In this document: piece by piece, positions 8,974 to 12,340 of the stretch | Numbering within the stretch: position 1 is the first letter of the stretch | Layout of the letters: every line of letters starts with the position of its first letter | Source of the DNA: Deinococcaceae bacterium | GTDB taxonomy: Bacteria > Deinococcota > Deinococci > Deinococcales > Trueperaceae | Direction: 5' to 3' | Assembly: GCA_040256005.1 (NCBI GenBank) | Contig: JBDZWC010000091.1 | Location: 1-12,340, forward strand | DNA: 12,340 nucleotides | The notes under the pieces: generated by a model | Seen by the model: only the letters and a program-made list of their open reading frames with translations | Databases searched by the model: none | Told to the model about the DNA's origin: nothing | Position numbers and translations under genes: made by a program

Positions 8974-11175
8974 CTAGGGGGCGTTCATCCCTTCCATCGC
9001 TTCCCGCACGTGGTCCGGCACGCGCGTGGACCCCACCACCGGCTGCACGGTGATGTCGAGCCCCGCGACGCGGGCGCCCGCCGGCACGTCGACGTACTGG
9101 TCGCGGTAGCCGAGGTAATCGCCTTCGTCCACCTTGCCGCTGTCGTTCTCGTCCGACCAGGCTCCCAGCAGGTTCCTGCCGGACTCCACCTGGAACTCGA
9201 AGTTCGTTATGACCCCGTCGCTGGTCTGGCTACCGCTCGTGTAGAGCCCGCCGTTCGGGTCTTCCTTGAACGCTGCCACGACCATTGGCCCGAGGACCTC
9301 GCCCTCGGCATCGCCCTGCCGGGCGAAGCGGACCTGGTAGAGGAACTGCTCTCCGTCGGCTTCGAAGATGGGCTCGATCGCGTAGAAGCCGTCGACCTCC
9401 AACAGGTCTCTGTCGATGAAGAACCTGATCTGCACGGATTCCTGCGGCTCGAGCGTGCCCGTGAGGAAGTCCGCCCCTGGCGGGGAGTCCTCGCCCACGA
9501 CCTCCGCCGAGACGACGCCTGCCGGCACCGGCCCCGGGTTGTCGATGTCCGACGCCTGCTCGTAGTAGCCGATCAGCTTCCACTCCGCCGTCGCGTCACC
9601 GCTGTTCGTCAGGGTGAACGTCGCGCTGGCGCGGCTGGCGCCCAGGTCGAGGACCGGCGGGTCGAACGTGAGGACCACGCCCTCCTCCACGGGTGGTGGG
9701 GGCTCGTCCGAGCCGATGAGGTCGAGGGCCACCCTGGCGTCGATGAGCCCCGCCCCGCAGTCGAAGCCATGCAAGTCGCGGTCGGGTGCGCCCTGCCCAT
9801 CGCACTCGGCGTCGCTGAGGGGCGTCGCGCTGGCACGCAGCAGCTCCAACGCCACGACGTCCGTGACCGTGGGATCCTCCGCGAGCATCAGCGAGATGAG
9901 GCCCGAGACATGCGGGGCGGCCATGGAGGTGCCCTGCATGAACACGTAGCCGTCGTCGCCGCCGGTGCTGAGGATGCCGTCGCTGGACCTGGCGCTGATG
10001 TCCCCGCCGGGAGCCATGACGTCCACCCTGGCTCCGTAGTTGGAGTACCAGGCCCGGTCGCCGTTGCGATCCGTCCCTCCCACCACGATGGGACCGGGGC
10101 AGTTGGCGGGGGTGAAGCCGCTGGCGGCCTTGTTCGCGTTGCCCGCCGCTGCCACGATGATCGCGGAGTCGGAGGCGGCGGTGATGGCGTCGAACAGAGC
10201 GCCGTAGCACTGGTCCGAGGCGCCACCCAGGCTGAGGTTGATGACGTCGGCCGGGTTCGGGTTGTTCGGCACGCCGGGGACGCTGCCGCCCGCCGCCCAA
10301 CGGATCGCGTCAGCGATGTCGGCGATAGCCCCACCGTTGGCACCCAGCACGCGGACGGGCAGCACCTTGGCGTGCCAGTCGACACCCGCGACGCCCTGGC
10401 CGTTGTTGGTGGTGGCACCTATCGTTCCGGCCACGTGCGTGCCGTGGTAGTCGCCCTGCGGCACCGTGTCGTAAGGGTCGGCATCGCGGCCGTCGCCGTC
10501 GTTGGCCATTACCGCGTCCGAGATGAAGTCGTAGCCGGGCAGAACGCGGCCCACCAGGTCAGGGTGCCTGAGGCTGGCGTTGGACTGGCTGTAGAGGATG
10601 CCCGAGTCCACGACCGCGACCGTAACAGCGGCGCTGCCTGTGGTGATGTCCCAGGCCCCCTCCATGTCGATCGCCTGGTAGTGCCACTGCCTGTCGTACT
10701 CGGGATCGTTCGGAGCCAGCGCAGGCTGCAACAGGTAGTTGGGGTGGGCGTACCGCACGTCCGGTCGCGCTTCCAGCGACGCCGCGATCTCAAGCAGCTC
10801 CGCCAGCGATCCCGCCGACGTCCGGTACAGCGCAGCCCCCTCGATGCCGAGAGGCCGCACCGCGTTCAACGTGACACCGGCCACCCGCAACTCGGAAACC
10901 GTCGCCCGCTGGAGCGCTGGCTCGAACGCCACGATCAGTTCGCCAGGCATGAAGTCCAGCTGTTCGAAATCACGCCCCACGGGGTCCAGCGCCAAGCCCG
11001 TCTGGGCCGCGCCGACGCTGCTTGGCCCCACGATCACCTCGCCGGCGACCGTCCCTGTTCCGGTCCCATCGGGCGGCGTCGGCTGGGTGCAGGCCGCGAG
11101 CAGCGGCAAGAGCACCAGGAGCGCGACGACGCCGCGGGCCCAGGGGGCCCCGGCTCGATCGGTCGTCGTAGACAT
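8974..11175 (-). CDS. Subtilisin-like S8 serine peptidase, lipoprotein, with propeptide and C-terminal beta-rich domains
   Basis: GGAGGTG RBS before ATG 11175 and lipobox LAAC. Catalytic D (VAVVDSG), H (HGTHVAG), oxyanion N (AAAGN), S (GTSMAAPHVSG). C-terminal DxNxSGxxDxGD motif. Confidence 0.95.
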   Translation of the reverse strand: MSTTTDRAGAPWARGVVALLVLLPLLAACTQPTPPDGTGTGTVAGEVIVGPSSVGAAQTGLALDPVGRDFEQLDFMPGELIVAFEPALQRATVSELRVAGVTLNAVRPLGIEGAALYRTSAGSLAELLEIAASLEARPDVRYAHPNYLLQPALAPNDPEYDRQWHYQAIDMEGAWDITTGSAAVTVAVVDSGILYSQSNASLRHPDLVGRVLPGYDFISDAVMANDGDGRDADPYDTVPQGDYHGTHVAGTIGATTNNGQGVAGVDWHAKVLPVRVLGANGGAIADIADAIRWAAGGSVPGVPNNPNPADVINLSLGGASDQCYGALFDAITAASDSAIIVAAAGNANKAASGFTPANCPGPIVVGGTDRNGDRAWYSNYGARVDVMAPGGDISARSSDGILSTGGDDGYVFMQGTSMAAPHVSGLISLMLAEDPTVTDVVALELLRASATPLSDAECDGQGAPDRDLHGFDCGAGLIDARVALDLIGSDEPPPPVEEGVVLTFDPPVLDLGASRASATFTLTNSGDATAEWKLIGYYEQASDIDNPGPVPAGVVSAEVVGEDSPPGADFLTGTLEPQESVQIRFFIDRDLLEVDGFYAIEPIFEADGEQFLYQVRFARQGDAEGEVLGPMVVAAFKEDPNGGLYTSGSQTSDGVITNFEFQVESGRNLLGAWSDENDSGKVDEGDYLGYRDQYVDVPAGARVAGLDITVQPVVGSTRVPDHVREAMEGMNAP

Positions 11176-11375
11176 GAGTTCACCTCCGCAGCGCGAGCGG
11201 GTCGCGATCGCCGTCGCACGTGGTCCGGCGAGCATAGGGGCGCTTCGAGCACGCCGACGCCGGTGCTTGAGGAACGATGAATCTCCCTGAGAATCGCGTT
11301 TGAGACGCGAGCCGAGCCTGGCCGAAGATGAGTTTCATGACGGCGGCGCAGACACTGGCGCCGTGCCCCGTGGCC

Positions 11376-11446: not shown

Positions 11447-11523
<77 letters not shown>

Positions 11524-11541: not shown

Positions 11542-11571
11542 CGGCACCCCGCTAGGGGTGCTGCTTCGTTT
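11542..11571 (+). terminator. Intrinsic terminator downstream of tRNA-Arg
   Basis: CGGCACCCC-gcta-GGGGTGCTG followed by CTTCGTTT. Confidence 0.7.
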
Positions 11572-11582
11572 ATGGCCCAGTT

Positions 11583-11601
11583 CGTAGCAGGAGCGTAGCA
11601 G
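11583..11601. repeat. 8-bp direct repeat CGTAGCAG, 11-bp period (integrase arm-type-like sites)
   Basis: CGTAGCAG at 11583-11590 and 11594-11601. Confidence 0.5.
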
Positions 11602-11607
11602 CACGCA

Positions 11608-11646
11608 CCGATTTGCTCAGGGGAGAAGCCGATGCGTAATCGGCAG
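11608..11646 (+). pseudogene. Degenerate tRNA-Thr(CGT) fragment (5' half through anticodon arm)
   Basis: CCGATTT-GCTCAG-GGGAGA, then a perfect 5-bp stem GCCGA-TGCGTAA-TCGGC-AG. No T arm. Confidence 0.6.
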
Positions 11647-11657
11647 CAAACGTTTCG

Positions 11658-11692
11658 GCGACGGTCTCCAAAACCGTAGGTCGCAGTTTCGA
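11658..11692 (+). pseudogene. tRNA-Trp(CCA) fragment (anticodon arm to T loop)
   Basis: ACGGT-CTCCAAA-ACCGT (5/5 pairs), variable loop AGGTC, then GCAGT-TTCGA. No acceptor stem or D loop. Confidence 0.8.
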
Positions 11693-11720
11693 CCTTGGGC
11701 TTAGGAGTCCTCTGCTCATC
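11691..11720 (-). pseudogene. Degenerate tRNA-Arg(CCT) fragment, inverted
   Basis: The minus strand reads GAT-GAGC-A-GAGGA-CTCCTAA-GCCCA-AGGTC, which is exact tRNA register. The stem pairs only 2/5. Confidence 0.5.
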
Positions 11721-11725
11721 GGCAC

Positions 11726-11747
11726 GAGCAATCGGCTCTTAACCGAC
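11726..11747 (+). pseudogene. tRNA-Lys(CTT) anticodon-arm fragment
   Basis: GAGC-A-ATCGG-CTCTTAA-CCGAC (4/5 pairs). Confidence 0.65.
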
Positions 11748-12251
11748 TAATCTCGGCACCAGCCTAGTTCCCTCTCAACGCCGCCCTTCGGGCCAGACTG
11801 ACGCCTTGACCGACTTCAAGCGGCCAGCCGACTATGGCCGCCCGGATTCCGTGCTCCCACACGAGCAGCTCGAGTCCGCCCGCACCCCGTTCGACTGGAA
11901 CCAACGTGACCTCGAAGGCGCGACATGGCCGTGCATCCCTGAGCTTTCCAGGAGCTCGGCACCATGCTCGGGGACGCGACCACGCTGCACGAGCTGTGGT
12001 AACGGCCTTCAAGCGTCTTGGGAGTTGTGACCATGGCGTCCCCGTTCCCTTCGTTGCGAATGCAACAACGTCACCTGGGTCCGGCCTGACGGGTCGTTCG
12101 AGCTCTCAGTGAACCCTTGGGTCCGGAAATCGACTGCTCCCGACATGCCACCAGACAAGACCTGAAGAACCGCAACCCCGCGCTTGGACATGCAGAGAAC
12201 TGTCGCTTATGTCTCGACTCATGTGTCGCCTATCAAGTGTCGCACCAGACA

Positions 12252-12267
12252 CTCTCGGGCGCACCAA
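12252..12267 (+). repeat. attR-like copy of the 16-bp direct repeat
   Basis: CTCTCGGGCGCACCAA is identical to 11509-11524. Imperfect similarity continues to ~12312. Confidence 0.9.
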
Positions 12268-12284
12268 GGTAAACACCTCACGAC

Positions 12285-12312
12285 GGCACCCCTTCGAGGG
12301 GTGCTTCTCGTT
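12285..12312 (+). terminator. Second, diverged copy of the tRNA terminator hairpin
   Basis: GGCACCCCT-tcg-AGGGGTGCT followed by TCTCGTT. Confidence 0.65.
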
Positions 12313-12340
12313 GGCACTCGCTCACAGCGGCGGCAGATCC

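What the first reader, a model, noticed from the sequence alone, without database searches (positions are those of the whole stretch)
11608..11783. Regularly spaced array of anticodon-arm fragments from several different tRNAs
Seen in sequence: 7-nt anticodon-like loops start at 11633 (TGCGTAA, Thr-CGT, 5/5 stem), 11666 (CTCCAAA, Trp-CCA, 5/5 stem plus AGGTC and TTCGA), 11701 (minus strand CTCCTAA, Arg-CCT, GAGC-A and AGGTC in register, weak stem) and 11736 (CTCTTAA, Lys-CTT, 4/5 stem, GAGC-A). A tentative fifth starts at 11772 (CTCTCAA, Glu-CTC, no stem). Spacings are 33, 35, 35 and 36 bp. Every anticodon begins with C, the loops approximate CTCNNAA, and no unit is a complete tRNA. Established: one class of tyrosine integrases crosses over in the 7-nt anticodon loop and uses the stem symmetry as core sites. 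Inference: this may be a compact stack of att cores, either a record of serial site-specific captures or a multi-target attP for several tRNA genes. It could instead be an RNA of anticodon stem-loop mimics, such as decoys for anticodon nucleases. Mixed orientation favours a DNA recombination origin over a decayed tRNA operon.
Basis: partly seen in the sequence, partly recalled or inferred. Interest (0 to 1): 0.85.

Follow-up and report, generated by a model that had tools for sequence, protein, structure and literature searches.

The report
Patchwork of four tRNA gene pieces
Just behind a tRNA gene, this bacterium carries the middle pieces of four other tRNA genes stitched end to end in mixed directions, most likely a DNA-copying scar inside a dead mobile element rather than a working device.

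Summary
The array is real, but it has four units, not five, and the 'Lys' unit is a mutated tRNA-Asn arm. The pieces are near-exact copies of host-type Thr(CGT), Trp, Arg(CCT, reversed) and Asn genes. They score 18-27 against a shuffle maximum of 14, and contigs from three other studies carry the same DNA. They lie in a decayed island end behind tRNA-Arg(ACG), which ends in a truncated IS481-family element. They are not anticodon-loop att sites: both arms of a unit come from one tRNA, no unit reaches CCA, two loops mismatch the host, and true attR fragments in relatives start at the loop and run to CCA (6 of 6). The joints fall on short motifs that tRNAs share (D-stem, T-loop), which by itself gives the 33-35 bp period and the strand flips. 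Best reading (0.5): a scar of serial microhomology template switching among tRNA genes or their cDNAs. Decoy readings (DNA landing pads, RNA) stay open but have no support. I found no second copy in 362 related genomes or in viral and metagenome scans, and the scan's earlier notes hold no such array. Side finding: this IS481 subfamily inserts exactly behind tRNA CCA ends.

The parts
11447..11523 (+). intact tRNA-Arg(ACG) gene, the integration site
   Evidence: ARAGORN; Rfam RF00005, 68.3 bits
11524..11571 (+). terminator-like hairpin A; its last 19 nt recur at the end of contig C44 in front of the native flanking gene
11583..11601 (+). pair of 8-bp direct repeats resembling integrase arm-type sites; homology to the island remnant of relative G005 runs to 11610
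   Evidence: sequence; similar repeat pairs behind tRNAs of relatives' islands; G005 alignment; role inferred
11608..11618 (-). inverted copy of the Asn piece's D-stem/anticodon-stem start (10 of 10, plus one extra base), joined to the Thr piece at the D-stem motif
11615..11646 (+). tRNA-Thr(CGT) piece, about tRNA positions 10-45; arm 22/24, with small deletions in the D-loop part
11647..11657 (.). linker that, with 11645-11646, is the fold-back complement of 11608-11617 plus a 4-base insertion
11658..11692 (+). tRNA-Trp(CCA) piece, positions 24-49 near exact (25/26 own, 26/26 a relative), loosely to the T-loop (91% over 35 nt)
11688..11717 (-). tRNA-Arg(CCT) piece, positions 22-51, reversed (27/28 own, 29/30 a relative); overlaps the Trp piece by 3-5 bases and the Asn piece by 4
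11714..11746 (+). tRNA-Asn(GTT) piece, positions 10-42, wobble base changed so that the loop reads like Lys(CTT)
11751..11761 (+). 11 bases identical to the 3' end of the genome's tRNA-Leu(CAA); may be a further piece or chance
11762..12143 (.). unassigned island DNA; no protein, RNA family or homologue found
12144..12251 (-). end of a truncated IS481-family element with the first ~16 codons of its transposase
   Evidence: the full copy in G087 has rve, rve_3 and HTH domains
12252..12266 (+). 15-bp duplicate of the tRNA-Arg 3' end, the IS481 target duplication
12267..12340 (+). second terminator-like hairpin and flank resembling the empty site of relative G009

Best explanation
The array is a copying scar: a patchwork made once, in the left end of an island behind tRNA-Arg(ACG), by a polymerase that switched template several times at short motifs shared by tRNA genes. 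Shown: four donors of host type from dispersed loci, mixed orientation, and joints in register on the D-stem motif (twice) and on the palindromic T-loop/variable-loop motif, plus a fold-back linker. Inferred: a broken 3' end near the att site annealed to a tRNA template, copied 25-40 bases and let go, then re-annealed by the next shared motif. It changed strand where the motif is self-complementary. Entering at the D-arm and leaving at the variable or T arm copies the anticodon arm each time and sets a period near 34 bp without any selection. Whether the templates were chromosomal DNA or tRNA-derived cDNA is not resolved. The piece has since drifted, like the IS481 remnant beside it, and probably does nothing.
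For: Joints: the Arg and Asn pieces overlap by the 4-base D-stem motif at 11714-11717; the Trp and Arg pieces overlap at 11688-11692; the inverted Asn start joins the Thr piece at the same D-stem motif. The 34-to-T-loop distance is 19 nt in all 23 donor-type tRNAs listed, and the D-stem lies 23-25 nt before position 34 in 21 of the 23, so motif-to-motif joins give 33-35 bp. The four donors resemble each other more than 98.8% of 101,270 possible sets of four among 41 tRNA types. The donors are dispersed (G030: 1.30, 1.62 and 4.24 Mb). Changes fall in loops and stems alike, including U33, the wobble base and a stem pair. No second copy: 0 of 362 genomes, 0 of 127, 4 of 127 chance-like hits; five viral scans and one metagenome scan gave only whole tRNAs or unrelated DNA. 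Patchworks simulated from random tRNAs fold as well as the real one in 29% (minus strand) and 51% (plus strand) of 139 trials. Precedent for the biochemistry only: group II intron-like RTs anneal microhomologies and do snap-back synthesis in break repair (10.1101/2022.03.14.484287, passages read).
Against: One example only; no intermediate or pre-insertion allele was seen. No reverse transcriptase was found in this 97% complete genome. The passages I read do not report tRNA-templated insertions, and my searches found no bacterial case. The joints are read from a decayed sequence and the overlaps are short; the Trp/Arg overlap is 5 bases only with a relative's Arg allele and 3 with the genome's own. 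The Thr/Trp joint shows no clean overlap. Indels sit in the D-arm parts (3 in 24 nt) and not in the arms (0 in 99 nt; Fisher p = 0.007, post hoc), which fits errors near joints but also selection on the arms. Donor similarity also fits recognition by one protein.
Confidence: 0.5

Rival explanations
1. Stack of attB mimics: the island keeps minimal copies of tRNA integration targets as landing pads or sinks for the integrases of other elements.
For: Each unit spans the loop and both arms, as an attB would, at about one recombinase footprint per unit (established knowledge, recalled). Mixed orientation costs nothing in DNA. Trp is a used anticodon-class target in three relatives, and arm-like repeats follow Arg(CCT) in G030.
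Against: Two of four loops mismatch the host. No Asn attR was found in 89 genomes with the pattern; the one second copy is a whole gene. The joints in register on D-stem motifs are not needed for this role. No such array was found in 127 loci of relatives, 20 of them fetched mostly as island ends. Thr(CGT) usage was not tested.
Confidence: 0.15
2. Structured RNA cargo: a transcript offering anticodon stem-loops as decoys for anticodon nucleases, or an antisense RNA that binds several tRNAs.
For: The minus strand folds with z = -3.46 and the plus strand with -2.20 over 11606-11762. An outer stem closes the Thr hairpin with matching extra bases. A hairpin at 11542-11563 could end transcripts.
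Against: Simulated patchworks reach the same z-scores often, and a version built from the unmutated donors folds better (-4.14) than the real one. One unit is antisense to the others; U33 and a wobble base are changed. No sigma-70-like promoter was found (this scan may miss promoters of this phylum). No conservation.
Confidence: 0.15
3. Collapsed tRNA cluster of a mobile element, shrunk by deletions between neighbouring genes at short homologies.
For: The pieces include D-arm and T-loop remains and a possible 3' end with CCA; deletions at microhomologies give the same kind of joint.
Against: It needs a cluster with alternating orientation; the phage clusters seen here are co-oriented. The pieces are host-type and the host genes are dispersed. 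No relative shows the cluster.
Confidence: 0.1
4. One reading: a record of serial site-specific captures, or a multi-target attP for several tRNA genes.
For: Anticodon-loop integrases are active in this family; arm-like repeats lie just left of the array; the Trp unit's left arm fits Ser(TGA) slightly better, a possible loop hybrid.
Against: Real att fragments run from the loop to CCA (6 of 6; Islander rejects internal fragments, PMC4383910, passages read). The joints lie outside the loops. Integration through these units would break single-copy tRNA genes, and no complementing tRNA is present, unlike tRNA-dependent lysogeny (PMC10865867, passages read).
Confidence: 0.05
5. Chance similarity or an assembly chimera of tRNA k-mers.
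For: The Rfam tRNA model does not score the units; the contig ends 560 bp further on.
Against: Scores 18-27 versus a shuffle maximum of 14; independent contigs span the array.
Confidence: 0.02

Closest known systems
tRNA gene fragments at island and prophage ends (attL/attR identity blocks; Islander, PMC4383910; PMC9897764, passages read)
   Same: tRNA-derived pieces beside a tRNA integration site; host-type sequence
   Different: The known pieces are terminal (mostly loop to CCA), belong to the target tRNA and are co-oriented with it. These are internal, come from four other tRNAs and are in mixed orientation.
Templated insertions by microhomology-mediated template switching (MMBIR/FoSTeS, polymerase-theta-type end joining: recalled; bacterial G2L4 and group II intron RT end joining: 10.1101/2022.03.14.484287, passages read)
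   Same: Short pieces from several templates, both strands, joined at microhomologies, with fold-back segments
   Different: All identified templates are tRNA genes from dispersed loci; I found no bacterial report of this; the enzyme is unknown.
Short-core attP of tRNA-dependent lysogeny (PMC10865867, passages read)
   Same: Short tRNA-matching core at the anticodon, without restoring the gene
   Different: There the core is about 10 bp, single, beside an integrase and a complementing phage tRNA. Here there are four pieces of 21-35 bp and neither partner.
tRNA fragments taken up as CRISPR spacers (one case in PMC9897764, passages read; RT-Cas1, PMC11014452, search listing only)
   Same: Unit size near 34 bp, either orientation, internal tRNA pieces
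   Different: No repeats between units and no Cas1 in the genome

Membership tests
att sites of anticodon-loop tyrosine integrases | fragment is terminal and restores the tRNA (loop to CCA) | tested here: not met
   Units end 8-17 bases after position 34; 6 of 6 true fragments in relatives run to CCA
att sites of anticodon-loop tyrosine integrases | crossover in the loop, so left and right arms differ in origin | tested here: not met
   Both arms best match one tRNA in 3 of 4 units; the Trp left arm is ambiguous with Ser(TGA)
att sites of anticodon-loop tyrosine integrases | 7-base overlap identical to the target | tested here: inconclusive
   Identical for Trp and Arg(CCT); one mismatch each for Thr and Asn; decay could explain it
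att sites of anticodon-loop tyrosine integrases | linked tyrosine integrase and arm sites on both sides | tested here: inconclusive
   No integrase remnant in the window; three tyrosine recombinases on other contigs; arm-like repeats on the left only; an unassembled gap follows the contig end
att sites of anticodon-loop tyrosine integrases | the donor tRNAs are used as targets in this lineage | tested here: inconclusive
   Trp yes; Arg(CCT) suggestive; Asn none seen; Thr(CGT) not tested
CRISPR array | conserved repeats between spacers | tested here: not met
   No repeat family across the units; no Rfam match
CRISPR array | Cas1 in the genome | tested here: not met
   No PF01867 match in the 97% complete genome
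Eroded tRNA cluster | a contiguous full-length cluster in relatives | tested here: not met
   Donor genes dispersed; no neighbouring Thr and Trp arms in 362 genomes (a pattern that only sees gaps up to 30 bp)
Functional decoy or antisense RNA | discrete transcript | not testable with these tools
   Only contigs could be laid; they cannot show strand, ends or level
Functional decoy or antisense RNA | structure kept by selection | tested here: inconclusive
   No homologues for covariation; folding no better than simulated patchworks
Microhomology template-switch insertion | pieces from distinct loci joined at microhomologies, with fold-back segments | tested here: met
   Three joints with 3-5 base overlaps and one fold-back linker; one joint (Thr/Trp) without a clean overlap
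Microhomology template-switch insertion | a responsible polymerase or RT, and a pre-insertion allele | tested here: inconclusive
   No RVT_1 match; other polymerases not searched; no empty allele of the array found
IS481 family (right-hand neighbour only) | rve-type DDE transposase with HTH, TGT/ACA ends, target duplication | tested here: met
   Full copy in G087; the window keeps one end and the duplication

The most novel reading that the evidence does not exclude
A mobile element assembled a compact decoy from the anticodon arms of four host tRNA genes. As DNA it would divert or host the integrases of rival elements; as RNA it would soak up anticodon nucleases or bind tRNAs. The copy here would be the decayed remnant of an undescribed class of counter-defence or landing-pad cargo.
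Probability: 0.2. Interest if true: 0.85.

Novelty: new variant of a known kind. Interest (0 to 1): 0.45.

Why it matters
As a scar, it is a rare natural record that a bacterial chromosome can take up short pieces from several dispersed tRNA genes by serial template switching. That is testable, and it would be more striking if the templates were tRNA-derived cDNA. It also warns that regular spacing of tRNA fragments can come from tRNA geometry alone. As a decoy it would be a new way for mobile elements to compete for tRNA integration sites or to blunt anticodon nucleases. The side finding, an IS481 subfamily that lands exactly behind the CCA of many different tRNA genes, may be the more reproducible result and a handle on structure-guided targeting by a single DDE transposase.

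Tried and rejected
The Rfam scan of the window and the tRNA model on the genome gave no hit on the array. BLAST against phages and plasmids gave only single Trp-arm matches in the rows listed (30 of 58 phage records, 14 of 14 plasmid records). My one scan of genome contigs used a 14-base motif that was too short and returned unrelated loci, so that collection is effectively unsearched for the array. The metagenome scan gave 36 stretches, whole or partial tRNA-Trp genes or chance matches. Five viral pattern scans found no array. DNA searches of 128 family and 363 order genomes found only single tRNA genes in the rows listed (each scores few candidates per genome). In 127 loci of relatives, other internal tRNA matches were isolated, 15-20 bases long and not anticodon-centred. 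The stretch 11762-12143 gave no Pfam family, no longer homologue, no Atlas hit above 0.79 and no rRNA origin. A 40-bp match to a gene junction in two Deinococcus genomes was not backed by a protein profile, so I rejected it. A 12-base tRNA-like match at the IS junction (12128-12139) also occurs in an unrelated gene end; I did not count it. The RNA run X20 holds one 153-base contig at 12020-12172 and nothing on the array, which shows nothing either way. PMC11708052 (passages read) had nothing on tRNA targeting by IS481. No structure or complex prediction was run. Supplements were not read for any paper; those of the bioRxiv RT preprint are closed and could hold sequenced repair junctions that bear on the mechanism.

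Full report
Setting. The window is the whole of contig C51 of a 3.1-Mb, 69% GC draft genome. A protein from a genome of the same order matches proteins named Deinococcus, so the order is Deinococcales; the family is unnamed in the tools. The only full tRNA in the window is Arg(ACG) at 11447-11523. Its last 15 bases and a hairpin recur 743 bp downstream, so the finding lies inside an insert at a tRNA 3' end.

Observation. BLAST and ungapped alignment to the genome's own tRNAs gave Thr(CGT) 22/24 at 11623-11646, Trp 25/26 at 11658-11683 and Arg(CCT) 27/28 at 11690-11717 on the minus strand. With 108 tRNA sequences from this genome and relatives, the fourth unit matched Asn(GTT) 20/21 at 11726-11746. 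It fits the genome's Lys(CTT) only in the loop, and the fifth, Glu-like unit has no support (13/24). The four scores (27, 26, 18, 18) exceed the maximum of 14 in 40 shuffles. In a genome-wide scan, three of 12 T-loop-less hits with at most two mismatches are in this array and the other nine are real or contig-cut tRNA genes. The stretch is held by 20 listed runs from 8 studies, 6 rows being possible sources. Contigs from three other studies cover the array with 0-1 differences. The DNA is real.

Anatomy. Gapped alignment extends the Thr and Asn pieces back to the D-stem 5' strand (position 10) and the Trp piece loosely to the T-loop. The reversed Arg piece ends in the complement of the D-stem 3' strand, and those four bases are also the D-stem 5' strand of the Asn piece (11714-11717). 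The array starts the same way: 11608-11618 is an inverted copy of the start of the Asn arm, with one extra base, and runs into the Thr D-stem. Trp and reversed Arg meet at the palindromic T-loop motif, overlapping by 5 bases with a relative's Arg allele or 3 with the genome's own. The linker after Thr is the fold-back complement of the array's left end with a 4-base insertion. The Thr/Trp joint has no clean overlap. Because the D-stem and T-loop motifs lie at fixed distances from the anticodon, joins at these motifs produce a 33-35 bp period by themselves. The four donors are unusually alike (top 1.2% of sets of four) and are dispersed in complete genomes.

Surroundings. Left of the array are a terminator-like hairpin and a pair of 8-bp direct repeats like those behind tRNA genes at relatives' islands; relative G005 shares this end up to 11610. 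On the right, 12144-12251 is the end of an IS481-family element with the start of its transposase, followed by the 15-bp duplicate. G067 shows the same order at tRNA-Ala (tRNA, hairpin, repeats, IS end, duplicate) without any array. The native flanking gene lies on contig C44, which ends in a copy of the first terminator, so more island DNA may be unassembled. The locus has seen several insertions and deletions. The 380 bp between array and IS are unassigned.

Test of the att idea. Anticodon-loop integration is common in this family: three Trp and three Arg(ACG) island-end fragments start 2-3 bases before position 34 and run to CCA, and tyrosine integrase genes lie at such island ends. Islander likewise defines att fragments as terminal and rejects internal ones (PMC4383910, passages read). 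The array's units are internal, carry both arms of one tRNA (3 of 4 clearly, Trp ambiguous with Ser) and differ from the host loop in 2 of 4 cases. Asn showed no attR in the 89 of 128 genomes that match its 3' half; the one double is two whole genes. A record of captures or a multi-target attP is therefore unlikely. An attB-mimic stack remains possible but unsupported.

Test of the RNA idea. The minus strand folds at z = -3.46 and the plus strand at -2.20. Patchworks built in the same layout from random sets of 22 tRNAs reached these values in 29% and 51% of 139 trials, and the unmutated donors gave -4.14. So the fold needs no selection. No sigma-70-like promoter was found, and contigs cannot show transcription. 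Against pure drift, indels are confined to the D-arm parts (3 in 24 nt versus 0 in 99 nt, p = 0.007, post hoc); errors near joints or selection on the arms could both explain that.

Search for relatives. None was found. The Thr-Trp pattern matched 0 of 362 other genomes and the tail-to-tail pattern 0 of 127. The head-to-head pattern matched 4 of 127, none with tRNA arms on inspection. One metagenome scan and five viral scans returned whole tRNAs or unrelated DNA. These are exact-pattern searches and would miss arrays built from other tRNAs, and the scan of genome contigs was wasted on a short motif. The scan's earlier notes held no look-alike. Paper searches for such arrays, decoys or bacterial tRNA-templated insertions found no description (listings only, except the passages named).

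Mechanism. I favour a one-off scar of serial microhomology template switching (0.5). The pieces, donors, orientations and overlaps are shown. The break, the polymerase and the order of events are inferred, by analogy with MMBIR/FoSTeS (recalled) and with bacterial RT-mediated end joining and snap-back synthesis (10.1101/2022.03.14.484287, passages read; they do not report tRNA insertions). The genome has no RVT_1 or Cas1 match, so DNA templates are at least as likely as cDNA. Rivals: attB-mimic stack 0.15, decoy or antisense RNA 0.15, collapsed tRNA cluster 0.1, att record or multi-target attP 0.05, artefact 0.02.

Verdict. Real, odd and apparently undescribed, but single, drifting and explainable without function. 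It works like a templated insertion and is not a member of the att-fragment or CRISPR families. Interest 0.45; the functional-decoy reading keeps a probability of about 0.2.

Noticed in passing
window 12144-12266; L428 (G087:C73), L429 (G070:C14), L430 and L024 (G071), L431 (G008:C342), L432 (G009:C207), L005 (G004:C18), L022 (G067:C10): An IS481 subfamily (about 1.3 kb, 401-aa transposase) sits 0-1 base behind the CCA of different tRNA genes: Pro(CGG), Ala(CGC), Val(TAC), Arg(CCT) and a CAT-anticodon tRNA. All 5 close homologues among 9 family hits do so. A 15-bp copy of a tRNA 3' end follows the other IS end in 5 of 5 aligned cases. Three paper searches found no description. One viral match to the IS end had no tRNA beside it.
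   Followed up: partly
G000:C44:12562-12580 and window 11553-11571: Contig C44 ends in an exact 19-base copy of the window's first terminator, then the native flanking gene; an unassembled stretch, perhaps a further island, lies between C51 and C44.
   Followed up: partly
window 12249-12287: One contig of run X17 skips 37 bases here, removing the 15-bp duplicate; what lies between is not known.
   Followed up: no
L397 (G014:C1:1096000-1110000): Two tandem attR-type copies of the tRNA-Arg(ACG) 3' half lie about 12 kb apart, far from the intact gene at 4.04 Mb of the same chromosome, which suggests a rearrangement through att sites.
   Followed up: no
G000:C72:4056-4132 and relatives: tRNA-Arg(CCT) of this family has a poorly paired anticodon stem (mismatches at the first and last pair), so the weak stem of unit 3 is largely inherited.
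   Followed up: no
L422 (G028:C53:12300-14600): Two whole tRNA-Asn genes 1.2 kb apart enclose a small two-gene cassette that reads like a HicBA-type toxin-antitoxin pair (label from memory, not scanned).
   Followed up: no
G000:C53:1449-2806: A broken tyrosine integrase lies directly behind tRNA-Val(CAC).
   Followed up: no
window 8974-11176 (-): A long ORF upstream of the tRNA reads like a secreted S8 subtilisin-type protease with a lipoprotein signal (from the translation; not scanned).
   Followed up: no
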